From Vibrio cholerae ATCC 14035 (GTDB lineage Bacteria; Pseudomonadota; Gammaproteobacteria; Enterobacterales; Vibrionaceae): a stretch of DNA of 32,000 bases. Below the pieces are notes generated by a model, which saw only the letters and a list, made by a program, of their open reading frames with translations, made no database searches and had not been told where the DNA came from. The DNA is taken from positions 30,001-62,000 of the forward strand of contig NZ_JHXR01000014.1 in NCBI RefSeq assembly GCF_000621645.1. The letters run 5' to 3'. Of the stretch, positions 1,237 through 32,000 are shown in pieces; position 1 is the first letter of the stretch, and the number at the start of each line of letters is the position of its first letter. The position numbers and the translations under genes are program-made.

Positions 1237-1310
1237 GGCGCGTTGGCAGAGTGGCCATGCAGCGGATTGCAAATCCGTGAACCTCGGTTCGACTCCGGGA
1301 CGCGCCTCCA
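1237..1310 (+). tRNA. tRNA-Cys (anticodon GCA)
   Basis: 74 nt. Acceptor stem is GGCGCGT/ACGCGCC with an encoded 3' TCCA. The anticodon arm GCGGA-TTGCAAA-TCCGT gives a loop of T T GCA A A. The T arm is CTCGG-TTCGACT-CCGGG. Confidence 0.95.
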
Positions 1311-6345: not shown

Positions 6346-6432
6346 GCCCTGGTGGTGAAATCGGTAGACACAAGGGATTTAAAATCCCTCGACTTTCGAG
6401 TCGTGCCGGTTCAAGTCCGGCCCGGGGCACCA
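6346..6432 (+). tRNA. tRNA-Leu (anticodon TAA)
   Basis: 87 nt with a long variable arm. Acceptor stem is GCCCTGG/CCGGGGC followed by ACCA. The anticodon arm AGGGA-TTTAAAA-TCCCT gives loop T T TAA A A. The T arm is GCCGG-TTCAAGT-CCGGC. Confidence 0.93.
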
Positions 6433-6456: not shown

Positions 6457-6530
6457 GGCGCGTTGGCAGAGTGGCCATGCAGCGGATTGCAAATCCGTGA
6501 ACCTCGGTTCGACTCCGGGACGCGCCTCCA
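6457..6530 (+). tRNA. tRNA-Cys (anticodon GCA), second identical copy
   Basis: The 74 nt are identical to 1237..1310. It lies 24 nt downstream of tRNA-Leu. Confidence 0.95.
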
Positions 6531-13202: not shown

Positions 13203-14842
13203 TGTTGTTTCTCCGTGGCTGAGTCGAAGGAAGGTAAATCGCTTGCACCGAGCAAGCCTTCGTAAATCCAGTAGCTAAATTCTGCTTCGCGTAGCGCATC
13301 GCCCCAGAAAATCGGTTTGATGCCTTTCCAGCGCTCTTCCAGAAAATCGACCAACAAATGGCTCGATTGGCAACCCGAAACTTGCCCGTATTCACTAAAC
13401 AGACTGGCTGCGCGATAGCTGCACAGCTCACCCTGACAAGGCCCCATACCCAAACGAGTACGGCGTCGTAGGTCGACCAAATTATTCACATCCAACTGCT
13501 TGATGGCGTATTCGATTTCACCGGCGGTGACCATTTCGCACTCGCAGATCACCGCTTGGCTTTTTGCATCGTCGGCTAAAAAGCTCGCGGCACGTTCACC
13601 GTGACGATAAATGGCAGATTCATAAACCGGTTTGGCAATACTGGCGGTTTTTTTGAGCGTTTTTGGCGCTTCTTGAGAGCCCGGTAAAGGGCGCAGATGC
13701 GTTTGGCAGCTTTGAGTATTGCCAAGCTTCTTGGCGACCAGATCGGTGGCCCACTCGGCCATCAAACGGTAAGTCATCAGTTTGCCACCGGTAATGGTGG
13801 TGAAGCCTTTCAAGCCGTCACGCTGCTCGTGATCCAGCAAAACAATGCCACGACTGATATTACGGCCACTGCCATCATCATCCACTGCGACCAGTGGGCG
13901 AACGCCCGCATAAGCGCGCAATACGCGAGTGTTGGCCATAATGGGGGCAAGTTTGGCGCCCTCGGCGAGCAAAATATCCACTTCTCGTTCAGTGACATGC
14001 AGATTATCGATCTGGTCATAATCAATGTGCTCGGAAGTGGTGCCAATCAGCGAAATGGTATCGCCGGGAACCAAAATGTCCGCATCCGATGGCTTACGGC
14101 AGCGGTTGATCACCAGATTATTAATGCGGTAATCCAAGATCAGCAGCGAGCCTTTGGCGGGGAACATCTTGATGTTGAGATCCGCATATTCGCAGATGTT
14201 TTGTCCCCAAATGCCTGCTGCATTAATCACTTGTTGAGCGAAAATATCAAACTTAGCGCCACTGCCTAAATGCTGGCAACGCACGCCAAGCACGGTATCT
14301 CCCTCACGGATCAACTGGGTCACAATAGTGCGGTTAAACATTCGCGCGCCATGTTCTTTGGCATCCAGCACATTGGCCGCACACAGGCGAAAAGGGTCGA
14401 GCGTACCGTCAGGCACTTTCACCGCGCCAATCAAAGCAGGGTTGACATTCGGCTCAAGTAACAAGGCTTCTTTAGGTGTTAAGCGCTGCGTTTCAATCCC
14501 TGCATCACTACAGGCGTGAATAAACGACTCCTGAAAGCCTAAATCATCTTCTGGCAGAGTGATAAACAAACCATCGGTGGCTTCAACGCAGTGGCGCGCG
14601 ATGGATTTCAGAATTTTGTTCTCTTGGATACACTCGCGTGCCGACTCAGAGTCAGTGACCGCGTAACGAGCGCCGGAGTGCAGCAAACCATGATTGCGAC
14701 CTGTGGTGCCCGCGGCAATGTCATCTTTTTCAACCAGAATACAGCGCAATCCGCGCAATGCGCAGTCGCGCAAGATTCCGGTTCCTGTTGCGCCGCCGCC
14801 AATGATGACCACGTCGGTTTCCATTCTTTGATAAGCCGTCAT
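13199..14842 (-). CDS. glpA: Anaerobic glycerol-3-phosphate dehydrogenase subunit A
   Basis: The ORF spans 13199..14860. It is colinear with E. coli GlpA from memory (DVIIIGGGATG..RDCALRGL, GRNHGLLHSGARYAV, RCRKPSDADILVPGDTISLIGTT, CECE.VTAGE). Candidate starts are 14860, 14842 (preceded by AAGGTTGAG; preferred) and 14824. Confidence 0.92.
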   Translation of the reverse strand: MTAYQRMETDVVIIGGGATGTGILRDCALRGLRCILVEKDDIAAGTTGRNHGLLHSGARYAVTDSESARECIQENKILKSIARHCVEATDGLFITLPEDDLGFQESFIHACSDAGIETQRLTPKEALLLEPNVNPALIGAVKVPDGTLDPFRLCAANVLDAKEHGARMFNRTIVTQLIREGDTVLGVRCQHLGSGAKFDIFAQQVINAAGIWGQNICEYADLNIKMFPAKGSLLILDYRINNLVINRCRKPSDADILVPGDTISLIGTTSEHIDYDQIDNLHVTEREVDILLAEGAKLAPIMANTRVLRAYAGVRPLVAVDDDGSGRNISRGIVLLDHEQRDGLKGFTTITGGKLMTYRLMAEWATDLVAKKLGNTQSCQTHLRPLPGSQEAPKTLKKTASIAKPVYESAIYRHGERAASFLADDAKSQAVICECEMVTAGEIEYAIKQLDVNNLVDLRRRTRLGMGPCQGELCSYRAASLFSEYGQVSGCQSSHLLVDFLEERWKGIKPIFWGDALREAEFSYWIYEGLLGASDLPSFDSATEKQQ

Positions 14843-14899
14843 GAGCTCAACCTTATGCAATCAAAACACATACGGTTAGTGTGCCATTATTTTCATTTC

Positions 14900-15063
14900 A
14901 TGTTCGTTGTTTTGCTCACAAAAGCGCGAACGAGCATTAAGTGGCAGGTGGAAGTGAATGAAATCTTTCAGTGGTGTAATTTTATGCGATTCACTTATTG
15001 ATGATTAACACTGTTTGTAACATATATGACACATTTAATGTTCGTTTGAGTGAATATGTTCGT
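14900..15063 (+). promoter_or_regulatory. Repeated ATGTTCGT boxes in the glpA/glpF divergent control region (candidate GlpR operator half-sites)
   Basis: Exact ATGTTCGT occurs at 14900-14907, 15038-15045 and 15056-15063, all in the same orientation. Related inverted CGAAC-containing elements lie at 14927-14937 (CGAACGAGCAT) and 15242-15248 (CGAACAC). The TGTTCG core resembles the half-site I recall for E. coli GlpR operators. Confidence 0.45.
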
Positions 15064-15496
15064 GACTTAATAAGGGAATATCTGTCGATTTTTCAGCGCG
15101 ATCGTGCGTTAAATCTGGCTTGTACTCATGATTTAGTGATTGCTAAACCAAAAGATTAGCCATTTTCAGACACTGGAGAAGAGAGAGAAAAAAGATGCGT
15201 TGTTTAACAAAAAACGAATTTGTTAATAACAAAATTGTGCTCGAACACTCATTAATTGCGGTCGTTTGTTTTCGAGGTGATATTTTTGTGCCAGATTCAC
15301 CGCGAACAGTGAGATTGTTCATCCAATAACGGCTATTTCATGATGCGATTAGAGCCGACGGGTGTAGGCGGCGACTACAATATAAACCGAAAAATAGTGA
15401 GACTGCAGATATTTATGCTGACTTTCTAAGTATAACGGGTGTGGATGGCTGTTCGATACGGCTCTGGTAGCAAGATAACAAAAAGGACTCTGAACT

Positions 15497-16351
15497 ATGA
15501 ACCAAACAAAGCAACATACTCTGCTCGGGCAGTGTATCGCCGAGTTTATCGGTACAGGATTACTGATTTTCTTCGGCGTCGGCTGCGTGGCCGCACTCGT
15601 TTTAGCAGGTGCTCAATTCGGACAGTGGGAAATCAGCATTGTCTGGGGTTTTGGCGTATCGATTGCCATTTATTGTACGGCTGGGGTTTCTGGCGCGCAC
15701 ATTAACCCTGCCGTCACTATCGCTCTGGCCGCTTTCCACGGTTTTGATAAAGCGAAAGTATTACCTTACATCATTTCGCAAGTGGCTGGTGCGTTTTGTG
15801 CGGCGGCACTGGTCTACAGCTTGTACAGCAACCTTTTTACCGACTACGAAATCGCCCACAATTTTGTACGTAGCAGCCAAGAAGCCTTAGCGACTGCGGG
15901 GATCTTCTCAACTTATCCGCATGCTTCTCTCTCTTTTATGGGAGCCATGGCCGTTGAGTTCACCATTACAGCGGTACTGATGTTCGCGATTTTGGCGTTG
16001 GGTGATGAAAACAATGGCGCGCATCGCAATGCGATGAACCCCTTGCTAATTGGTATTTTGATTGCGGTGATTGGTGGCTCATTAGGCCCATTGACGGGAT
16101 TTGCCATGAACCCTGCGCGTGATTTCGGTCCTAAACTGTTTGCCTACTTCGCGGGATGGGATTATGCCCTAACTGGCGCAAAAGAGATCCCTTACTTCAT
16201 CGTACCGATTGTGGCTCCGATTCTGGGCGCATGTTTTGGCGCGTGGGCATATCCAAAGTTTATCGCGGCTTATCTGCCAAAAACGGGTACGGGTTGCACT
16301 ATTCCGAACCAATGTGACACGGCAGAAGAGAGTGAAGAAGCGCGCGCATAG
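15497..16351 (+). CDS. glpF: Glycerol uptake facilitator (aquaglyceroporin)
   Basis: 284 aa with 6 TM segments. Both MIP-family NPA boxes are present (SGAHINPAVT and GFAMNPARD). Confidence 0.93.
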   Translation: MNQTKQHTLLGQCIAEFIGTGLLIFFGVGCVAALVLAGAQFGQWEISIVWGFGVSIAIYCTAGVSGAHINPAVTIALAAFHGFDKAKVLPYIISQVAGAFCAAALVYSLYSNLFTDYEIAHNFVRSSQEALATAGIFSTYPHASLSFMGAMAVEFTITAVLMFAILALGDENNGAHRNAMNPLLIGILIAVIGGSLGPLTGFAMNPARDFGPKLFAYFAGWDYALTGAKEIPYFIVPIVAPILGACFGAWAYPKFIAAYLPKTGTGCTIPNQCDTAEESEEARA

Positions 16352-17998: not shown

Positions 17999-18035
17999 TT
18001 TTTCTCTCACCATAAAATTTTTCTTTCTTCATAAC

Positions 18036-18068
18036 AATAATGCCCGGGTAAACCGGGCATTATTTTTT
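18036..18068 (+). terminator. Rho-independent terminator after glpK (may also serve the convergent small membrane gene)
   Basis: Stem AATAATGCCCGG pairs with CCGGGCATTATT (18036-18064) around loop GTAAA. A TTTTTT run follows at 18062-18067. Confidence 0.8.
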
Positions 18069-18077
18069 CAGGGAAAA

Positions 18078-18329
18078 CTAAGCCGCGCTCGAAGACGCGT
18101 CAGGCTTTTTTTCCTGTTGCATTTTCACCAAGAAGTAGACGTTGACGCAGGCAATAAAACCGTTAGTTACGACGACAGGCCAAGCATCAATCATCAAACC
18201 GTATGCAGTAAACAGTGCACAACCAATAAAATTCAGTACACGCAGTCTGACGATGTCTTTCATTGTCAATGATACCGCCACCATGATCGATGCCGCGTAT
18301 CCTAAAATTTCAACCATACTCATATCCAT
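18078..18329 (-). CDS. Small 3-TM inner-membrane protein (YgjV / SemiSWEET-like triple-helix-bundle pattern)
   Basis: 83 aa with three hydrophobic helices. The pattern LGYAAS...(TM1)...F.AYG....WP....N(TM2-3) resembles YgjV-repeat and SemiSWEET-type proteins, but the PQ motif is absent. The family call is tentative. Confidence 0.55.
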   Translation of the reverse strand: MDMSMVEILGYAASIMVAVSLTMKDIVRLRVLNFIGCALFTAYGLMIDAWPVVVTNGFIACVNVYFLVKMQQEKKPDASSSAA

Positions 18330-18707
18330 TATTTGACCCTCGTTAATAGTGTGGACAGTGTCAGTGTCGTGCCAATCTTCTCATCGTGAGAGTAGTGAGG
18401 AAGCTCCATGCCTCGAATGGTTTCTTGGTGAATTTGCCATGGGTTGAGTATGGCTAAACCATCAAGAAAAGAGGCCGCTCTATCGCTATTTTAGTCAAAC
18501 CTGCGATTTTCAGGGCACTCTGTTGATTCACTAATGACACTATAGCAATGGAAAATATGTGACGAAAGGCTCGGAATTTTGTTCGGTGAAGGTTAGCGAT
18601 TACGCAAACGTTTAATGTCGATCACGTTCAGTTTTTGCAAGGCAGACATTGATAGAAACGTTAACGCTTTTACCTTAACTCGAATGAGAGAAACGGATTG
18701 GCGCGCT

Positions 18708-18732
18708 AAAGAAAACCCACCTTGCGGTGGGT
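18708..18732 (-). terminator. Rho-independent terminator after yeeX
   Basis: On the minus strand the sequence reads ACCCACCGCAAGGTGGGT followed by TTTCTTT. It lies 10 nt after the yeeX stop. Confidence 0.7.
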
Positions 18733-18741
18733 CTGGAATCA

Positions 18742-19062
18742 TTAGGCTTTTTTGCCTTGAGTCATCTGCTTATCGTGCTCAGTTAAGTCTTTGATACGAC
18801 GGCTGATATCACGGCGCTCTTTAGAAATTTCCGCGCTCTTGATGATGTGGTCATCGACACGATCTTCGTAGTCAGACTTCATGTTTTTGATGATGCCGAG
18901 AATCTCTTCGTGGCTCATGTTTGGCTTGATGTAGTCAAGCAGGTTTACCAGCAGTTCAACACGCTTACGGTTATCACGTACTTTTTTCTCGTTATCATCG
19001 AGTTCGCGTTGAAGTTTATTTTTGCGACGAGCCAAGCTCACAATTTCAAATACGCTGTTCAT
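18742..19062 (-). CDS. yeeX: DUF496/UPF0265 protein YeeX
   Basis: 106 aa. [58 protein letters not shown] matches E. coli YeeX almost block-for-block from memory. Confidence 0.9.
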
Positions 19063-19249
19063 AGGTTCCTTTTCCTACTTTTAATGCAACTGCGAAGATT
19101 AAAACACAACAATTCTTTTCATAACAGACTTAAGATCAATATGCGGCTTATCTTGACCAATAAATCGCCATTCAAAGCGCGAGCCAATTGTACATCAGAA
19201 ATAATGCGCTATATCATGTGCGCCATTCATGAAGACATGATGAGCAACC

Positions 19250-19447
19250 ATGCGTAATTCTGAGATTTTGGTTCCCACACCGCCGCTGCAAACTGAGCTT
19301 GATGCTGTCGCAATCAAACTGCGAGAGGCTTACATTAAAGAGCGTCAGCAGCTTGAGTTGACCGAAATTGAATTAAACCGCGCCAGAATCATTATGATTG
19401 ATGAGAATGGCAAAATGATTCGGTTACCTCTGTTAACTGAGCATTAA
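19250..19447 (+). CDS. Hypothetical small protein (65 aa)
   Basis: The only evidence is an intact ORF in an otherwise unassigned 426-nt gap, co-oriented with yceH and ending 41 nt before it. There is no convincing SD and no recognisable motif. Confidence 0.3.
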   Translation: MRNSEILVPTPPLQTELDAVAIKLREAYIKERQQLELTEIELNRARIIMIDENGKMIRLPLLTEH

Positions 19448-19488
19448 ATACCGACTGCGGGTTCGCCCGCCAGCAGAAGGACAGCACG

Positions 19489-20139
19489 ATGAATATTCAA
19501 CTCTCCCCACTCGAAGCCCGTGTAATTGGCTGTTTAATTGAAAAAGAAGTCACCACGCCCGATCACTATCCACTGACACTCAATAGCTTAACCACCGCTT
19601 GTAACCAAAAAAGCAATCGCGAACCGGTACTCAACTTGAGTGAAGCGGAAGTGCAAGACACGGTGGAAGGGTTAATCGCTCGTCGCCTTGTAAGCGATGA
19701 AAGCAGCTTTAATAGCCGTACCAGCAAATACCAACACCGCTTCTGTAATACAGAGTTTGGCGATCTCAAACTCAATCAACAAGAACTCGGACTCATCTGC
19801 TGCTTATTGCTGCGCGGTGCGCAAACCCCCGGAGAGCTGCGCACGCGAACCAATCGACTCTGTACATTTACCGATGTGAAAGAGACTGAAGCGGTACTTG
19901 AGCGCTTAGCGAATCGTGATTCAGGTGCGCTGGTGGTGAAATTGCCGCGTGAGCCGGGTAAGCGTGAGTCCCGCTACCATCATCTGTTTTGCGGTGAAGT
20001 GGATATGGCGGCTTTTGCCACGAGCTCAGACAATGAAGCGAACGCCTCTTCTCAATACGCTGAGCTAGAACAAGAAGTGGCAGCACTGCGTGAAGAAGTG
20101 GCCGAGTTGCGCGCACTGATTGAACGACATTTAGGCTAA
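19489..20139 (+). CDS. yceH: DUF480/UPF0502 protein YceH
   Basis: 216 aa. [20 protein letters not shown]...TACNQK.NREPV.NLSE.EV and [24 protein letters not shown] and REPGKRE.RY.HLF match E. coli YceH from memory. Confidence 0.9.
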
Positions 20140-27259: not shown

Positions 27260-27658
27260 TTACAGCAGCTCGATATGATCCACTTCAATCTCAGGCGTGC
27301 GGCCGTTTTCAAATTCCCCAAACAGGCGCACTTTGGTTTCTGGCGTGAGCGTTGCGTTCAGGTGAATATCATCATCCAGCTCTACCTGAATTTCGTTGCT
27401 GCCATCAGAGAACATAAAGGTGTCTTTGCGCAGTTGGCGAACCAAATTGCCTTCCACCACGACTTTCTTCTCCATAAATGGGTTGGATGAATCCAGCAGC
27501 GATTGCACCTTCACCACTTCTACAGGGCCTTGGAACTGAACACCTGCTTGAGTTTGGTTGTCGCCAATAAATTTAATGTGTTGCGCGTTATCCGCCGCGA
27601 TAACCAAAGTGGGTGCCAGAATCAGAGCAGAAGTCAGAGCGATAATAGTACGTTTCAT
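27260..27658 (-). CDS. ygiW: YgiW/YdeI-family periplasmic OB-fold (BOF) stress protein
   Basis: 132 aa with the signal peptide MKRTIIALTSALILAPTLVIA. The C-terminal VVVEGNLVRQLRKDTFMFSDGSNEIQVELDDD matches the characteristic 'V.L.G.I......D.Y.F.D..G.I.VEID' pattern of the BOF family. Confidence 0.85.
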   Translation of the reverse strand: MKRTIIALTSALILAPTLVIAADNAQHIKFIGDNQTQAGVQFQGPVEVVKVQSLLDSSNPFMEKKVVVEGNLVRQLRKDTFMFSDGSNEIQVELDDDIHLNATLTPETKVRLFGEFENGRTPEIEVDHIELL

Positions 27659-27859
27659 GGTTTTTCCTTTTTCATCAATGTGTCTCGAAGGAGACTGTTT
27701 GTTGTCTTGATGTGGCTATTAAACGCTATCGGATTTGAACCAATACTGAGGCGACGATTAATATTCGGTTCATTTTACGAGGTTTGATTCACGCAACACT
27801 GCCGGCCCAGTAGCAACCTATACTATGGAGAGAAATGTCATTGTCTGTGGGGTGGAAAG

Positions 27860-28165
27860 ATGCAAAATCGATTTAAGGTTCTGCTAGGCGTGATATTGCT
27901 TTTTCCGATGTTCGCGTTTGCCAAAATCAACATGGCGGAAGTGAATGCCTACGCTTACGAAGGATTGGCCGACATGTGCGCCAATTCTCGCCATATCACT
28001 GGTGAGCAGCAGAAAGAACTGCAAGCGATATATCTACAAATCAAACACACTCGCCAAAAAATCTTACCCGCCAATAACGATTTTGCTCACTACGCCGCCA
28101 AACAGTTATGGGATATTCACACCACTCCGCACTATGAAGAGTGCATTGCTCTCCTCAAAAAATAG
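27860..28165 (+). CDS. Hypothetical small secreted protein (101 aa)
   Basis: The signal-peptide-like N-terminus is MQNRFKVLLGVILLFPMFAFA. The mature part has two Cys and carries no motif I recognise. The gene is divergent from ygiW and is followed by a hairpin at 28198-28217. Confidence 0.55.
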   Translation: MQNRFKVLLGVILLFPMFAFAKINMAEVNAYAYEGLADMCANSRHITGEQQKELQAIYLQIKHTRQKILPANNDFAHYAAKQLWDIHTTPHYEECIALLKK

Positions 28166-28193
28166 TCACAACCAGCCCAACAAAGCCAAAACG

Positions 28194-28217
28194 AAAAAGC
28201 CGCCCCGAAGGGCGGCT
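28194..28217. terminator. GC-rich tetraloop hairpin at the left edge of the AT-rich islet; the U tract is on the minus strand only
   Basis: Stem AGCCGCCC (28198-28205) pairs with GGGCGGCT (28210-28217) around loop CGAA. On the plus strand it is preceded by AAAACGAAAAA, which reads TTTTTCGTTTT after the hairpin on the minus strand. Only GAAAGTG follows it on the plus strand. Confidence 0.6.
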
Positions 28218-28464
28218 GAAAGTGTGCAAGCAAAGGTGTTAAGTTGAACCTGTCGTTCAGCACAAACCTTAGACTGAATAGTTGCGGTGCTCAATCCGGT
28301 CGTGTATAAAACGTGAGGTGCAATGAATTGCTTATGCAATCATCATGACTATAAATTGCATAAGTATTATTGTATGAAGTGATTAGTTGGCTTCTTGCAC
28401 ACTAGTTACTGCTAGGCTGCAATGCCAGCTCATGCGTCATCGTTTGCTACTTTAAGGAGATTAC

Positions 28465-31131
28465 ATGATTGGCTCAATTTGGACTAAATGGGATTTACAT
28501 ATTCATTCTCCATATACACATCAAGCAAACGAATTCGGCAGTACCACAATAGATGAGTTTGTTAATAAGGTGATTTCTTCAAACCTCAGTCTGATTGCTA
28601 TAACTAATTACTTCTTTTTTAAAGAAGATGAACTAGATGAAATTAGGGATAAATTTAAGGAAAAAGGTGCTGAAGTCACGGTTTTAGGTAATCTCGAATT
28701 TCGTATTGACCAACAAAATAAAGAAGGCGAATGGATCAATGTGCATTGTATTTTTTCGGAAAATATTACCACTCGCAAGATAAATACCATTCTGTCTACC
28801 CTCCCAATTTCTAACACCACCGCTGAACGAAAAAGTATTTATTGCTCACAGCTGTCTTTATCTGATGCCCAAACTAAAATTTCTGAAGTGATGGTGAATT
28901 TCGATGGGCTAATTCAGCATTTGAATAGAAACTTAAAATTTGGAGTAGATTTCTTGATTGCTGCCTGTCCAAATGGTTATGGTGGATTTAGACCTGACGT
29001 AACTGAAGGGCGGTCTTTGGCTGCTGCATTAGAAATAGAGAAAAGGTGCCAAATCATACTTGGAAGACCTCAAGATCGGCCGTTTTTTCTGGATCAAAAC
29101 AGATATCAATCTGCTATACAAAAGCCCGTTTTTTTTGCTTCTGACTCCCATAAATTAGAAGAAATTGGAAAAAAATACTCTTGGGTTAAAGCTAAGCCTA
29201 CATTTGAAGGTTTAAGACAAGCCATTATTGAACCAGATTTAAGAGTTCAGCAAACTGACGATTTTGTTGAAAAAACGTATATTAAACCATGGTTTAAATC
29301 GGTTGAACTAGGCGGGAAGGTTTTTGAAGGTGAGGAAATTACTTTCTTAAGTCAGAAAATTCCACTAAACCCCAACCTTATTACGATAATTGGTGGGAGA
29401 GGGACGGGTAAAAGCCTATTTTTAGATGCGATGCACTCAAGGTTTAATCATCGGGCTGAGCACTCTAATGCACGAAAAGTTAGCGGTGAAAGTCTTTGTG
29501 TTGAGTTAGATCAGGGCGATGGAACAGTGCTGAAATTTGATTCTTCGGCAAACACCTATTCCTATTTGCATGTATCACAAGGAGATGTTCAGCATTTTAG
29601 CCAAAAGCCTGATGACTTGAGTGACGAAATCAAAAGAATGCTAGGAATACATGGTATTCAATTTGATTCAGTTGCCAGCTCTGAAATAGTTAACAATTTA
29701 AGCAAGTACCAAACATTCGTTCAATATTGGGAAGATACTGATTCACAAGGGCAGCGAATAAATACACAAGGTTACCAACAAAGTGTTATTGATAGTAACA
29801 CTCAGTTAATTGCTACACTTACTAATCCTCAGAACAAATTACTTATTGAAAGTTATCAGAAAAACTCAAAAAGTATTAATGAGAAGAATAGATTCATTGA
29901 AGAGGCAAGAAATATGGTAGCTTTAATTAATCGTTACGCTACCGAATTAAATCAAAAGATTGCACTCTTAAACTCAAACGCTTGCTCAGTAAATCAGTCA
30001 CCTTTAGTTGATGAGTCTATATTCAAAGATCCAATAAATGAAAATATTAAAAACTGCAAGGATGAAATGGTAATTCTGGAAGATAATAATAAAGAAATAG
30101 CTCTTCAATTTCAGAAGCAAGGCATCAGTCAAGATATTTCATCCCTGCTTGGAAAAGTAACAGAATATCAAAAATCTATAGATCAAGCGTCAGCAAAATT
30201 GGTAGAGATAAATCAGAAAACTTCTGAATATCATGAGTACGTTCAGAAGCGTGGCGAGCTGGCACTTAGCTATAAAAATTACCTAAATAGCCAAAAAGAA
30301 AGTATCGATAATGCATTTCAAAGACTCAAGGTGAAACAGCCGAGTTGGAATGATGAACAAAATGATTTGGTTCAGAATATTCTTGTCGATATAAACATCA
30401 ATGGTAGAGTGGTATTTAATGTAGAGCAGTTTTATGCAGGGATTGAAGAGTGCTTAAATAAAGGTAAGTTTAGGAACACAAGTGAAAAATCCACCTTTGA
30501 AAGGTTGCAAGAAACTTTTTGTGTTAAATCAATCGATGACTTATTCAAGCTTGTGGCAGGTGAAAAAATAATTAACTGTGATGGCACCCCGACAAGTATC
30601 GAAGAGTTTTTTTGGAAACCTGAATATTTTAACAAAGGTGGGCGGTTCGAGCTGCTGAGTTACCTATATATACCTTCAAATATTAGAAAATATCTTTATG
30701 TAAATGCTGACTTCCAATACAAAGGGAAAGAAGTAAATAAACTGTCAGTAGGTCAACGAGGTACTTTTTACGTATGTTTGAAATTAGCTACGGATCCATT
30801 CGGCAGTCCATTTGTCTTTGACCAACCTGAGGATGATCTTGACAACGAGTTTATTATGGCTCAGCTTGTGCCACTATTTAGAAAAATAAAGAAATATCGA
30901 CAAGTAATTATTGTTACTCATAATGCTAATCTGGTCGTTAATACTGACGCTGAGCAAGTTATCGTTGCTGATAATCAGGGCGAAAATATACGTTACAGAG
31001 CTGGTTCTGTTGAAGACGGTAATGTCAAAGATAATTCAGGGATAAGAGCTGATATTTGTAACATTCTGGAAGGCGGGAGTTATGCTTTTGAGAAAAGAGA
31101 GAGAAAATACGGTATCCAAGAATTTGCCTAA
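28465..31131 (+). CDS. PHP phosphoesterase fused to a Rad50/SMC-like split ABC ATPase (888 aa); candidate single-gene anti-phage defence protein (Ppl-like architecture)
   Basis: A strong SD AAGGAGA lies 4 nt before the ATG. PHP ligand motifs are WDLHIH (aa 9-14), H94 and ASDSH (aa 225-229, nt 29137-29151). Walker A is GGRGTGKS (aa 310-317, nt 29392-29415). About 440 aa of K/E/Q/N-rich helical insert follow. The remaining ATPase motifs are signature-like LSVGQRG (aa 760-766, nt 30742-30762), Walker B FVFDQPED (aa 783-790, nt 30811-30834) and IIVTHN (aa 815-820). The gene is markedly AT-rich relative to its flanks. Confidence is high for the CDS and moderate for the function. Confidence 0.85.
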   Translation: MIGSIWTKWDLHIHSPYTHQANEFGSTTIDEFVNKVISSNLSLIAITNYFFFKEDELDEIRDKFKEKGAEVTVLGNLEFRIDQQNKEGEWINVHCIFSENITTRKINTILSTLPISNTTAERKSIYCSQLSLSDAQTKISEVMVNFDGLIQHLNRNLKFGVDFLIAACPNGYGGFRPDVTEGRSLAAALEIEKRCQIILGRPQDRPFFLDQNRYQSAIQKPVFFASDSHKLEEIGKKYSWVKAKPTFEGLRQAIIEPDLRVQQTDDFVEKTYIKPWFKSVELGGKVFEGEEITFLSQKIPLNPNLITIIGGRGTGKSLFLDAMHSRFNHRAEHSNARKVSGESLCVELDQGDGTVLKFDSSANTYSYLHVSQGDVQHFSQKPDDLSDEIKRMLGIHGIQFDSVASSEIVNNLSKYQTFVQYWEDTDSQGQRINTQGYQQSVIDSNTQLIATLTNPQNKLLIESYQKNSKSINEKNRFIEEARNMVALINRYATELNQKIALLNSNACSVNQSPLVDESIFKDPINENIKNCKDEMVILEDNNKEIALQFQKQGISQDISSLLGKVTEYQKSIDQASAKLVEINQKTSEYHEYVQKRGELALSYKNYLNSQKESIDNAFQRLKVKQPSWNDEQNDLVQNILVDININGRVVFNVEQFYAGIEECLNKGKFRNTSEKSTFERLQETFCVKSIDDLFKLVAGEKIINCDGTPTSIEEFFWKPEYFNKGGRFELLSYLYIPSNIRKYLYVNADFQYKGKEVNKLSVGQRGTFYVCLKLATDPFGSPFVFDQPEDDLDNEFIMAQLVPLFRKIKKYRQVIIVTHNANLVVNTDAEQVIVADNQGENIRYRAGSVEDGNVKDNSGIRADICNILEGGSYAFEKRERKYGIQEFA

Positions 31132-31312
31132 CAAGCCACTACACTCGGAAATTTTACTCGCTTTGCTCCCAAAATTCCGGTGAATGGATAGGTAAACCTA
31201 TAGAAATTTTAATCCGAAACTCAAAAATTAGAGTTGGGAGCTTAACACGCTTCTGTCCATAAACGCGTCATCCCAAATCAGCGATAAACTCCAAGTGACT
31301 ACAAATCTAGTT

Positions 31313-31731
31313 CCCTCCCCTTTTAGGGGAGGGTTAGGGTGGGGTATTTTAGTTTTCGCTGAAGTTTGTATTTTCCACGTTTAACACATCTGGTGCGAAA
31401 TACCCCCTCCCAACCTCCCCCTATAAGGGAGAGGGGCGTGAAACATTTGAGTTTTGTTGAAGTATTTATTTCCCACTATTTAACTCATCTGGCGTGAAAT
31501 ACCCCCTCCCAACCTCCCCCTATAAGGGGGAGGAGCGTGAAACATTTGAGTTTCGCCGAAGTATTTATTTTCAACTATTTAACTCATCTGGCGCGAAATA
31601 CCCCCACCCGTCCTCCCCTATAAGGGGGAGGGGGCTGTAATATTTGAGTGTCGCTGAAATATTTATTTTCCACGTTTAATACATCTGGCGCGAAATACCC
31701 CCTCCCAACCTCCCCTTATAAGGGGGAGGGG
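31313..31731 (+). repeat. Tandem array of about 99-bp repeats (3 full units, 1 truncated, plus a leading variant unit), each carrying a C-tract/G-tract palindrome
   Basis: Unit starts (CATCTGG) are at 31387, 31486, 31585 and 31682, giving periods of 99, 99 and 97. Each unit has GAAATACCCCCTCCCAA followed by the hairpin CCTCCCCC-TATAA-GGGGGAGG. A leading element at 31313-31350 has the hairpin CCCTCCCC-TTTT-(A)GGGGAGGG with the arm inverted (TTAGGGTGGGGTATTTT). Confidence 0.9.
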
Positions 31732-31904
31732 TAACGAAGCCTGTACAAAACGCTTTCCCATTAAAAACAGCAAAGTACCAGACGCAGACCGTATTGAGGT
31801 ATGCTAACGCCTCTTGGTTTTCGAGGGGCGAGGTTGCTCCTCTGGTTAACGTGATTGCGGAGTGGGCGACACTGGCGCACTCCAATCCATCATTAAGTGA
31901 TTGC

Positions 31905-32000
31905 ATGAAAAAATGGTTAATGGTGCAAGGCACCACCTCAGATGCGGGAAAAAGCGTGTTGGTTGCCGGCTTGTGCCGAGTATTGGCGCGTCGCGGCATT
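31905..32000 (+). CDS. cobQ: Cobyric acid synthase CobQ/CbiP, N-terminal 32 codons (continues beyond the window)
   Basis: ATG at 31905 is followed by [32 protein letters not shown], which is open to the window end. [17 protein letters not shown] is the conserved CobQ N-terminal P-loop-like motif. The ORF is absent from the supplied track because it is short and open-ended. Confidence 0.8.

What the first reader, a model, noticed from the sequence alone, without database searches (positions are those of the whole stretch)
28465..31131. 888-aa PHP-nuclease / Rad50-like ATPase fusion: candidate stand-alone defence protein
Several motifs are seen directly. The N-terminal roughly 255 aa carry the His/Asp metal-ligand pattern of PHP (polymerase and histidinol phosphatase) phosphoesterases: HxH at aa 12-14, H94, and D227/H229 in ASDSH. 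The rest has split ABC/SMC ATPase topology. Walker A (GGRGTGKS, K316) is separated by about 440 residues from a signature-like LSVGQRG, Walker B FVFDQPED and an IIVTHN switch. The intervening stretch (about aa 440-640) is K/E/Q/N-rich and looks coiled-coil. Established knowledge: PHP domains act as metal-dependent phosphoesterases or 3'-5' exonucleases in PolIII-alpha and PolX. Walker A...coiled coil...signature/Walker B is the Rad50/SbcC/SMC layout. ATPase-sensor plus nuclease-effector pairings underlie Gabija (GajA), PARIS, Lamassu and OLD-family defence. Inference: this is a single-chain functional analogue of SbcCD/Mre11-Rad50, with a PHP domain in place of the calcineurin-like nuclease, and it probably acts on phage DNA. 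From memory, a PHP+ATPase single-gene system named Ppl was validated in the 2020 large defence-gene screen by Gao and colleagues. I cannot verify here whether this protein belongs to that family or is a distinct, uncharacterised PHP-ATPase lineage. To my knowledge the mechanism is unresolved in either case.
Basis: partly seen in the sequence, partly recalled or inferred. Interest (0 to 1): 0.85.

Follow-up and report, generated by a model that had tools for sequence, protein, structure and literature searches.

The report
Ppl-like PHP-nuclease/ATPase defence gene in Vibrio
The 888-residue protein is real and is a single-chain fusion of a metal-dependent PHP nuclease domain and an SMC/Rad50-like ATPase; it belongs to the annotated TrlF family, which also contains the validated anti-phage protein Ppl, and it sits in a Vibrio cholerae chromosome-2 slot that carries other phage-defence systems in other strains, so it is very probably a phage-defence gene of a known kind.

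Summary
NCBIfam places the protein full-length in the "TrlF family AAA-like ATPase" (567 bits, cutoff 350). It fails the Ppl equivalog model (107 bits, cutoff 1000). A genuine E. coli Ppl also passes the TrlF model (476 bits), so Ppl and this protein are collinear, divergent members of one PHP + ABC/SMC-ATPase family. They share 23% identity over the PHP/Walker A part and 34% over the C-terminal head, and nothing detectable across the coiled coil. An AlphaFold2 model (pLDDT 86) shows a PHP domain, a split ABC head and a coiled coil of about 220 residues. Foldseek matches SMC, MukB, JetC, Rad50 and RecN heads, and the PHP enzyme RNase AM. The gene is the only cargo of a 2.9-kb low-GC cassette (36% against 48%). 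In other V. cholerae strains the same slot holds Hachiman, Old, Septu, Lamassu, Dsr1, a SIR2 protein and other cargo, which makes it a core defence hotspot. Best explanation: a stand-alone Ppl-like, nucleotide-regulated exonuclease for anti-phage defence. This function is inferred, not tested. Ppl's mechanism was published in 2026, so the claim that it is unresolved is outdated. Verdict: a new member of a known kind, of moderate interest.

The parts
28317..31242 (.). Variable cassette, 2,926 bp, GC 0.36 against 0.48 for the rest of the window, carrying only the TrlF-family gene
   Evidence: blastn of window 27501-32000 against 12 alternative V. cholerae alleles: homology stops at 28313-28316 on the left and resumes at 31243-31254 on the right in most alleles. 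GC and GC3 (0.29 against 0.52 for luxQ) are.
28465..31131 (+). TrlF-family (Ppl-like) gene, 888 aa, coordinates include the stop codon
   Evidence: ORF list; NCBIfam NF045780 566.7 bits against cutoff 350, residues 3-883; 100% identical to V. cholerae O395 ABQ19350.1 / ACP11418.1
28454..28459 (+). Shine-Dalgarno AAGGAG, 5 nt upstream of the ATG
   Evidence: Read directly from the sequence
28331..28364 (.). Perfect 10-nt inverted repeat CTTATGCAAT / ATTGCATAAG with a 14-nt spacer in the cassette leader; possible operator or promoter element (inference)
   Evidence: Sequence. The other alleles carry a different but related leader of about 68 nt at the same place.
28465..29250 (+). PHP phosphoesterase domain, aa 1-262, with ligand candidates H12, H14, E78, H94, D227 and H229
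   Evidence: Pfam PHP_C above cutoff and PHP below cutoff; AF2 pLDDT mostly above 90; Foldseek hit to V. cholerae RNase AM 9etk, E 1.4e-5; residue conservation
29251..29664 (+). N-terminal half of the ABC/SMC ATPase head, aa 263-400, with Walker A G310-S317 (29392-29415) and Q-loop Q372
29668..30330 (+). Antiparallel coiled coil, aa 402-622, with the apex near aa 504-517 and no CxxC hook
   Evidence: AF2 helices 402-422, 435-452, 458-503, 518-551 and 558-622; no C..C motif anywhere in the protein
30352..31128 (+). C-terminal half of the head, aa 630-888: signature LSVGQRG (30742-30762), Walker B/D-loop FVFDQPEDDLD (30811-30843), H-loop T818-H819-N820 (30916-30924), and the conserved C-terminal motif LEGGxxAFxxR
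28198..28217 (.). GC-rich hairpin AGCCGCCC-TTCG-GGGCGGCT just after the upstream 101-aa gene (VCA0731 homologue). It separates that gene from the cassette.
   Evidence: Terminator scan; sequence

Best explanation
The gene encodes a stand-alone defence protein of the TrlF/Ppl family, directed against phages or other mobile elements. An N-terminal PHP domain is the metal-dependent nuclease effector. It is fused to an SMC/Rad50-type ABC ATPase head whose two halves are separated by a coiled coil of about 220 residues. By analogy with E. coli Ppl, the nucleotide-binding head, and possibly the PHP site as well, keeps the nuclease off while cellular NTP levels are normal. NTP depletion during infection, together with exposed 3'-OH DNA ends, would release a 3'-5' exonuclease activity that destroys replicating phage DNA. 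The gene was acquired horizontally as a single-gene cassette in a core defence hotspot on V. cholerae chromosome 2, between the VCA0731 homologue and the cobQ-like gene. Shown here: fold, family, motif conservation, cassette boundaries and hotspot context. Inferred: defence function, substrate and the regulatory logic.
For: Family: the TrlF model matches full-length, 566.7 bits against 350. A genuine Ppl (1330 bits on its own model) also passes the TrlF model over its full length, at 476.5 bits. BLASTP of the window protein against Ppl is collinear: aa 1-323, 23% identity, E 1e-11; aa 746-878, 34% identity, E 2e-16; hhalign 99.3% over the C-terminal head. The PADLOC Ppl HMM gives E 1e-23. Structure: AF2 pLDDT 86.2, pTM 0.68. 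Foldseek PDB hits are SMC, MukB, JetC, cohesin, RecN, Rad50 and RecF heads at E 2e-8 to 1e-5, and the PHP enzyme RNase AM at E 1.4e-5. Selection: ATPase and PHP catalytic residues are invariant or nearly so across 127 divergent representatives. Context: low-GC cassette 28317-31242. The same slot holds Hachiman, Old, Septu, Lamassu, Dsr1, a SIR2 protein, a PD-DExK/NucC-like protein, PDC-M01 and an HD+NTase set in other V. cholerae strains. In 71 other species the immediate neighbours are enriched for type I R-M subunits, type ISP, MmeI and Mrr enzymes, integrases, dCTP-deaminase-like proteins and reverse transcriptases, and no partner is conserved. Distribution is patchy across phyla, and 1,126 plasmids carry a hit, 813 of them conjugative. 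Mechanism of the relative: Ppl is described as an NTP-inhibited ssDNA 3'-5' exonuclease that senses 3'-OH ends (PMC12904381; Xu et al. 2026 as cited in PMC13434339).
Against: No experiment on this protein, or on any non-Ppl TrlF-clade member, was found. It fails the Ppl equivalog cutoff by a wide margin, and the central 420 or so residues show no detectable similarity to Ppl, so the trigger and regulation may differ. PHP motif II is T-N-Y here, against S-D-H in Ppl, so metal-site chemistry and substrate could differ. The residue after the Walker B Asp is Gln (DQPE) in 125 of 127 members; by my own inference this may mean slow hydrolysis, which neither supports nor excludes the model. The best PHP structural match is an RNA exonuclease. 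The primary Ppl paper could not be read.
Confidence: 0.62

Rival explanations
1. It restricts plasmids or other mobile elements, or serves competition between elements, rather than phage defence. The SMC-like head and coiled coil would recognise plasmid or foreign DNA topology or ends, as Wadjet and Lamassu/DdmABC do, and the PHP nuclease would degrade that DNA.
For: The best structural matches include the JetC (Wadjet) and MukB heads. The same slot carries a Lamassu system in another strain. V. cholerae is known, from the literature, to eliminate plasmids with SMC-like systems (DdmABC, cited in PMC12904381). The family is very common on conjugative plasmids (813 of 1,126 records), which would suit competition between elements.
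Against: The only characterised relative, Ppl, is an anti-phage protein. A gene carried by so many conjugative plasmids is unlikely to attack plasmids in general. There is no kleisin or KITE partner, and no conserved neighbour at all.
Confidence: 0.15
2. The effector acts on RNA rather than DNA. The PHP domain would work as an exoribonuclease like RNase AM/YciV, so that defence or growth arrest comes from degrading RNA.
For: The top PHP-domain structural hit is V. cholerae RNase AM (9etk, E 1.4e-5). A phage counter-defence protein against Ppl, Bas63 gp130, resembles the RNA-binding protein Ro60 (PMC11482910).
Against: Ppl is reported to be an ssDNA 3'-5' exonuclease. The fused partner is a DNA-binding type of ATPase (SMC/Rad50/RecN/RecF heads). 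The Foldseek match is weak (TM 0.47 on the target) and shows the fold only.
Confidence: 0.1
3. It is a housekeeping DNA-repair enzyme, an SbcCD/Mre11-Rad50 analogue, as the legacy annotations 'DNA repair protein' and 'ATPase involved in DNA repair' suggest.
For: Source annotations. Weak sequence hits to Rad50 (E 0.015). Rad50-like topology.
Against: The gene is not conserved even within V. cholerae, where the slot carries unrelated defence systems in other strains. GC is 36% against 48%. The V. cholerae genome representing the species in the collection gave no top hit. There is no zinc hook. Neighbours elsewhere are R-M and defence genes.
Confidence: 0.05

Closest known systems
Ppl (anti-phage protein Ppl; Gao et al. 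2020 screen, recalled from memory; NCBIfam NF042955; PADLOC PDLC02208)
   Same: A single gene of almost the same length (888 against 891 aa) with the same order of parts: N-terminal PHP domain with HxH, E and DxH; Walker A about 310 residues in; a long helical insert; then a C-terminal S-x-G-Q signature, DQPEDDLD Walker B/D-loop, [ST]-H H-loop and LEGGxxAF tail. The alignment is collinear. Both pass the TrlF family model.
   Different: Only 23-34% identity in the conserved ends and none detectable across residues 324-745. It scores 107 bits against the 1000-bit Ppl cutoff. PHP motif II is T-N-Y instead of S-D-H, and the motif III histidine is shifted by two positions (N92/H94 against H92/L94). 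No phage-defence data exist for this clade.
TrlF family AAA-like ATPase (NCBIfam NF045780), including plasmid-borne members in Enterobacteriaceae
   Same: Full-length match above cutoff. 45-50% identity to annotated TrlF proteins on Aliivibrio, Salmonella IncI and Klebsiella plasmids. 53-81% identity to chromosomal members in Pseudoalteromonas, Photobacterium, Shewanella, Aeromonas and Pseudomonas.
   Different: None that matters: this is the family it belongs to. The family is an annotation label. No paper that uses the name alongside 'ATPase' or 'phage' concerns this protein.
Rad50/SbcC and SMC-family ATPases (Smc, MukB, JetC, RecN)
   Same: A split ABC head with a Walker A / Q-loop N-lobe and a signature / Walker B / D-loop / H-loop C-lobe joined by an antiparallel coiled coil.
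   Different: The coiled coil is short, about 100 residues per arm. There is no CxxC zinc hook or hinge domain and no separate Mre11/SbcD, kleisin or KITE partner. The nuclease is fused in cis and is of the PHP type, not the calcineurin-like type. Walker B is DQ rather than DE.
Core defence hotspots (the concept described for Pseudomonas aeruginosa; 10.1101/2022.11.11.516204, listed)
   Same: A fixed chromosomal slot, flanked by conserved core genes and lacking dedicated mobility genes, carries many alternative defence systems in different strains.
   Different: It lies in a different species and locus: V. cholerae chromosome 2, next to luxPQ. I found no description of this particular slot in the library, which does not show that none exists.

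Membership tests
TrlF family AAA-like ATPase (NCBIfam NF045780) | Whole-protein score at or above the curated cutoff (350 bits), with a full-length match to the 944-position model | tested here: met
   566.7 bits, residues 3-883 on model positions 2-944
Ppl (NCBIfam NF042955 equivalog) | Whole-protein score at or above the curated cutoff (1000 bits) | tested here: not met
   107.4 bits in two stretches; a genuine Ppl scores 1330.5
Ppl (PADLOC PDLC02208) | A significant HMM match with adequate coverage under PADLOC's own rules | tested here: inconclusive
   E 1.1e-23, 81 bits, two stretches, the best covering only 756-878. PADLOC's coverage thresholds and full pipeline were not available.
Ppl (as a functional system) | Single-gene system: PHP domain and NTPase domain in one polypeptide, with no obligate partner | tested here: met
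   Domain layout. It is the only gene in the cassette. No neighbour is conserved across 71 loci.
Ppl (as a functional system) | Confers phage resistance; NTP-inhibited ssDNA 3'-5' exonuclease activated by 3'-OH ends | not testable with these tools
   Needs plaque assays and biochemistry. The properties are known only for E. coli Ppl.
PHP phosphoesterase superfamily (Pfam PF02811 / PF13263) | Profile match at the gathering threshold | tested here: inconclusive
   PHP_C 22.2 against 21.3 (passes); PHP 16.1 against 26.4 (fails)
PHP phosphoesterase superfamily | PHP fold with the His/Asp/Glu metal-ligand motifs: HxH, motif II (D)H, E, H, H, DxH (motifs as recalled from established knowledge, Aravind & Koonin 1998) | tested here: met
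   The confident AF2 domain matches RNase AM 9etk. H12, H14, E78, H94, D227 and H229 are conserved. The motif II His is replaced by invariant N48-Y49 within this clade, so the set of metal ligands is incomplete relative to canonical trinuclear PHP enzymes.
Rad50/SbcC | ABC head split by an antiparallel coiled coil | tested here: met
   AF2 secondary structure; Foldseek hits to Rad50 3auy and 5dny, E 2e-6 to 8e-6
Rad50/SbcC | CxxC zinc hook at the coiled-coil apex | tested here: not met
   No C..C motif anywhere; the cysteines at 507 and 531 are not conserved
Rad50/SbcC | Partner Mre11/SbcD calcineurin-like nuclease encoded alongside | tested here: not met
   It is the only gene in the cassette, and no such neighbour is among the commonest families at 71 loci
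OLD / Gabija GajA / PARIS AriA class (ABC ATPase + TOPRIM) | TOPRIM nuclease domain fused to or paired with an AAA_15/21 ATPase | tested here: not met
   No TOPRIM hit. Only the short C-terminal ATPase stretch matches AAA_21 and AriA.
Core defence hotspot cargo | The same core-gene-flanked slot is occupied by different known defence systems in strains of the same species | tested here: met
   Ten cargo types, including Hachiman, Old, Septu, Lamassu and Dsr1, confirmed with PADLOC HMMs, with shared junctions

The most novel reading that the evidence does not exclude
The TrlF clade represented here is not just a divergent Ppl but a mechanistically distinct branch. Its altered PHP metal site (N-Y in place of D-H in motif II) and unrelated coiled-coil insert would give it a different trigger or substrate, for example RNA, modified DNA or a phage protein. 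As the allele carried by the classical-biotype strain O395, in a V. cholerae chromosome-2 defence hotspot for which I found no description, it would contribute to lineage-specific differences in phage susceptibility.
Probability: 0.2. Interest if true: 0.6.

Novelty: new member of a known kind. Interest (0 to 1): 0.4.

Why it matters
If the inference holds, V. cholerae O395 and related strains carry a functional single-gene defence system that I did not find in the searched literature. That matters for understanding which vibriophages, such as ICP1, ICP2 and ICP3, can infect which lineages. The locus also gives a clean natural experiment: one fixed slot next to luxPQ carries at least ten alternative cargo sets, among them several known defence systems, PADLOC candidate systems (PDC-M01, PDC-M70A-like) and uncharacterised cargo (DUF6602, HD+NTase+His_Phos). 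The slot could therefore be mined for new systems. For the TrlF/Ppl family, this clade offers a second, divergent member on which to test whether NTP-depletion and 3'-end sensing is general. The family is large: 1,145 clusters at 50% identity with E<=1e-30, more than 1,100 plasmids, and members in many bacterial phyla and in one archaeal genome among the listed loci.

Tried and rejected
(1) Literature on 'TrlF': the word alone returned only unrelated acronyms in the listed results. The four papers that hold 'TrlF' with 'ATPase' are unrelated, and none holds it with 'phage'. The origin of the name remains unknown to me.
(2) Locus tags VCA0728-0731: the only paper found concerns the neighbouring VCA0732.
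(3) The primary Ppl paper (Xu et al., Mol Cell 2026) is not held. Its mechanism is taken second-hand.
(4) Solved structures by sequence: only weak Rad50/ABC hits for the window protein, nothing for the family profile, and no Ppl entry when Ppl itself was used as query.
(6) hhalign of the family profile against Ppl reported only the C-terminal head. Full-length collinearity therefore rests on BLASTP and the TrlF HMM.
(7) Mobility signatures: the cassette has no flanking direct repeats, integrase or transposase. A site-specific element was rejected in favour of allelic exchange through the conserved flanks, which is an inference.
(8) No Rfam family and no consensus sigma-70 promoter lie in the 148-bp leader.
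(9) The 99-bp tandem repeats downstream were considered as a CRISPR-like array and rejected. The whole unit is conserved, with no unique spacers, and the repeats lie in the conserved flank.
(10) A conserved partner gene was looked for and not found. The largest neighbour cluster, HsdS, occurs at 9 of 71 loci.
Full report
OBSERVATION. The six-frame ORF list contains 28465..31131 (+), ATG start, 888 aa, exactly as reported. An AAGGAG ribosome-binding site lies 5 nt upstream of the ATG. The gene is compositionally foreign, with GC 0.36 and GC3 0.29, against 0.48 for the rest of the window and a GC3 of 0.52 for luxQ.

FAMILY. Pfam alone is weak. Only PHP_C reaches its gathering score (22.2 against 21.3); SMC_N (30 against 40), AAA_21 and PHP (16 against 26) fall below theirs. 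NCBIfam is decisive. The model 'TrlF family AAA-like ATPase' (NF045780) matches residues 3-883 at 566.7 bits, against a cutoff of 350. The related Spaf_1101 model (161 against 475) and the Ppl equivalog model (107 against 1000) fail. PADLOC's Ppl HMM gives E 1e-23 in two stretches, and the candidate models PDC-M49A and mad3 score lower.

To place the protein relative to Ppl, I fetched a genuine Ppl gene from E. coli plasmid pCY598. It scores 1330 bits on the Ppl model and also 476.5 bits, full-length, on the TrlF model. The Ppl tested here therefore also fits the broader TrlF family. Pairwise BLASTP between the window protein and Ppl is collinear: aa 1-323, 23% identity, E 1e-11; aa 746-878, 34% identity, E 2e-16. 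The central 420 or so residues show no detectable similarity. hhalign gives 99.3% probability for the C-terminal head. The protein is therefore a TrlF-family member and a distant full-length homologue of Ppl, but not a Ppl equivalog.

SIZE AND SPREAD OF THE FAMILY. A word-indexed search found 734 relatives. Hits include a 100% identical protein in V. cholerae, about 80% identity in Pseudoalteromonas, Photobacterium, Shewanella, Halomonas and Aeromonas, and about 55% in Pseudomonas. Many are labelled 'TrlF family AAA-like ATPase' or, in older records, 'DNA repair protein'. An exhaustive HMMER scan of cluster representatives at 50% identity found 1,145 proteins at E<=1e-30 and 4,933 at E<=1e-10, most of them 850-970 aa and matching full-length. 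In the collection with one genome per species, 391 stretches encode relatives. These are scattered over Gamma- and Betaproteobacteria, Bacteroidota, Bacillota, Cyanobacteria, CPR lineages and one archaeon. Hits occur on 1,126 plasmids, 813 of them predicted conjugative, annotated TrlF, Ppl or Spaf_1101. Seven phage records carry a hit.

STRUCTURE. An AlphaFold2 model built from a 47-sequence alignment is confident (mean pLDDT 86.2, pTM 0.68). It shows an alpha/beta domain at aa 1-262, an N-terminal head lobe with Walker A at aa 263-400, long helices at 402-622 that run out and back with an apex near 504-517, and a C-terminal head lobe at 630-888. Foldseek against the PDB returns SMC, MukB, condensin, cohesin, JetC, RecN, Rad50 and RecF heads (E 2e-8 to 1e-5). 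For the N-terminal domain it returns the PHP enzyme V. cholerae RNase AM (9etk, E 1.4e-5). No solved structure of a close relative or of Ppl exists in the PDB copy. There is no CxxC motif anywhere in the protein, so there is no Rad50-type zinc hook.

CONSERVATION. Counts come from 127 divergent representatives plus Ppl.
- ATPase head: G310, G315, K316, Q372 (Q-loop), D786, P788 and D793 are invariant. S317, S761 and E789 are kept in 123 of 127, G763 in 126 and H819 in 124.
- PHP domain: E78 and D227 are invariant. D10 is kept in 123, H14 in 116, H12 in 113 and H229 in 112.
- Motif II reads T-[D/N]-[Y/H]. This clade has invariant T47-N48-Y49, whereas Ppl has S-D-H.
- The motif III histidine sits at position 94 here and at the position aligned with 92 in Ppl.
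- The residue after the Walker B aspartate is Gln (DQPE) in 125 of 127 members. In canonical ABC and SMC ATPases a Glu-to-Gln change at that position traps the ATP-bound state. My inference is that the head works more as a nucleotide sensor than as a motor. That would fit the regulation reported for Ppl, but it is untested.

GENOMIC CONTEXT. The window matches V. cholerae O395 chromosome 2 at 100% identity over 27501-32000. The protein is ABQ19350.1 / ACP11418.1 and was seen on 112 contigs. The gene order is luxP, luxQ, a PilZ gene, a 179-aa gene, a BOF/YgiW gene (VCA0732), a 101-aa gene (VCA0731), the TrlF gene, 99-bp repeats, a cobQ-like gene and modABC (locus tags from PMC5636140).

Looking up the 101-aa neighbour and its 85-aa variant in other assemblies showed that the same slot carries different cargo in different strains. 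PADLOC HMMs identified the cargo as follows.
- Hachiman: HamA 398 bits, HamB 996 bits.
- A P2 Old-like nuclease (215 bits), accompanied by a Tn5-like transposase.
- Septu: PtuA and PtuB.
- Lamassu: LmuA 600 bits, LmuB 992 bits.
- Dsr1.
- A 630-aa SIR2 protein.
- A DUF6602 protein resembling PD-DExK and NucC nucleases.
- PDC-M01A and PDC-M01B.
- An HD protein, a nucleotidyltransferase (PDC-M70A) and a His_Phos protein.

Homology between alleles breaks at window 28313-28316 on the left and resumes at 31243-31254 on the right in most alleles. The cassette is therefore 28317-31242, and the TrlF gene is its only cargo. No integrase, transposase or flanking direct repeat accompanies the TrlF allele, so exchange through the conserved flanks is the likely route (inference). 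This is the pattern of a core defence hotspot.

CONTEXT IN OTHER SPECIES. At 71 loci from other species, no neighbour is conserved; the largest neighbour cluster, HsdS, occurs at 9 loci. The 137 immediate neighbours are rich in defence and mobility functions: type I specificity subunits (8-9), N6-methylases (6), ResIII/DEAD helicase-nucleases (6-7), type ISP enzymes (3), MmeI (2), Mrr (2), integrases (3), dCTP-deaminase-like proteins (2) and reverse transcriptases (2). The gene therefore travels alone through defence islands and is often embedded in type I R-M loci.

MECHANISM. Nothing has been published on this protein in the searched library. [quoted passage not shown] NTP depletion by the phage relieves inhibition by NTPs bound to both the PHP and NTPase domains, and the protein detects 3'-OH ends made by phage homing endonucleases (PMC12904381). 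The primary reference is Xu et al., Mol Cell 2026;86:180, cited in PMC13434339. I could not read it. An earlier preprint found that the Ro60-like phage protein Bas63 gp130 counters Ppl (PMC11482910).

My best explanation, at confidence 0.62, is that the V. cholerae protein works in the same general way. The PHP nuclease would be held inactive by the nucleotide-bound SMC-like head and released on infection to degrade phage DNA from 3' ends. The shown steps are fold, family, motif conservation and hotspot context. The inferred steps are defence activity, DNA substrate, polarity and NTP gating.

RIVALS. Three alternatives remain:
- Plasmid or mobile-element restriction (0.15).
- An RNA-directed effector (0.10), because the best PHP structural match is an exoribonuclease.
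- Housekeeping repair (0.05), which strain-variable presence and foreign composition contradict.

VERDICT. It is a new, untested member of a known and annotated kind. The most useful new information is the slot itself, a V. cholerae chromosome-2 defence hotspot next to luxPQ with at least ten alternative cargo sets. I found no description of this slot in the library. Interest is 0.4.

Noticed in passing
window 31312-31773: An array of about four 99-bp tandem repeats (85% matches) lies in the conserved right flank, between the cassette and the cobQ-like gene. Each unit carries a GC-rich hairpin (CCTCCCC-TATAA-GGGGAGG), and a fifth hairpin lies in inverted orientation at 31312-31349. Copy number differs between strains: about 1 to 4 or more copies in the alternative alleles. 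There is no Rfam match and no copy elsewhere in the window.
   Followed up: partly
window 28317-28390; L008, L011, L014, L015 and L099-L104 just after the left junction: All non-TrlF cargo alleles share a conserved leader of about 68 nt immediately after the left junction (AAAGCAACTGTATTCATATGTAATTGTGGTATGTATTAGTTGCAGGTAAGGCATTGTTGAGGGTGATG). The TrlF allele has a diverged version containing a perfect 10-nt inverted repeat (28331-28340 and 28355-28364). It may be a shared promoter or operator for whatever cargo occupies the slot.
   Followed up: partly
L008, L011, L012, L014-L016, L099-L104 (V. cholerae chromosome 2, slot between the VCA0731 homologue and the cobQ-like gene): The slot is a defence hotspot with at least ten cargo types. 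Two have no strong match to a named defence system and are candidates for new systems: a single DUF6602 protein resembling PD-DExK/NucC nucleases (L099), and an HD + nucleotidyltransferase (PDC-M70A-like) + His_Phos trio (L103).
   Followed up: partly
window 1237-1310 and 6457-6530: Two tRNA-Cys(GCA) genes with the same length and the same Rfam score, the second preceded by tRNA-Leu(TAA) at 6346-6432, bracket a segment of about 5 kb containing six or so ORFs. This could be a duplication or an insertion at a tRNA gene.
   Followed up: no
window 14501-16000 and 18001-19500: Two further dips in GC content (0.43 against about 0.49) occur elsewhere in the window and may mark other acquired or intergenic segments.
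   Followed up: no
L010 (AP026559.1): In this assembly the TrlF gene is split into pieces of 56, 157 and 566 aa. luxP, luxQ, the PilZ gene and modC are also fragmented, so these are probably assembly frameshifts rather than a true pseudogene.
   Followed up: partly
H31, Microcystis phage Mwe-JY31 PP438423.1 16108-18783; H34, Vibrio phage 10N.286.54.E11_PE001: A 22-kb Microcystis phage record encodes a full-length homologue (25% identity over 99% of the query). A 14-kb Vibrio cyclitrophicus element carries a protein that matches only the C-terminal head. The family is thus also carried by phage or satellite-like elements.
   Followed up: no
family-wide, aligned to window aa 786-789: Walker B reads D-Q-P-E rather than D-E in 125 of 127 representatives, including Ppl. 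This is a natural 'EQ-like' state, which in SMC and ABC ATPases normally blocks hydrolysis.
   Followed up: partly
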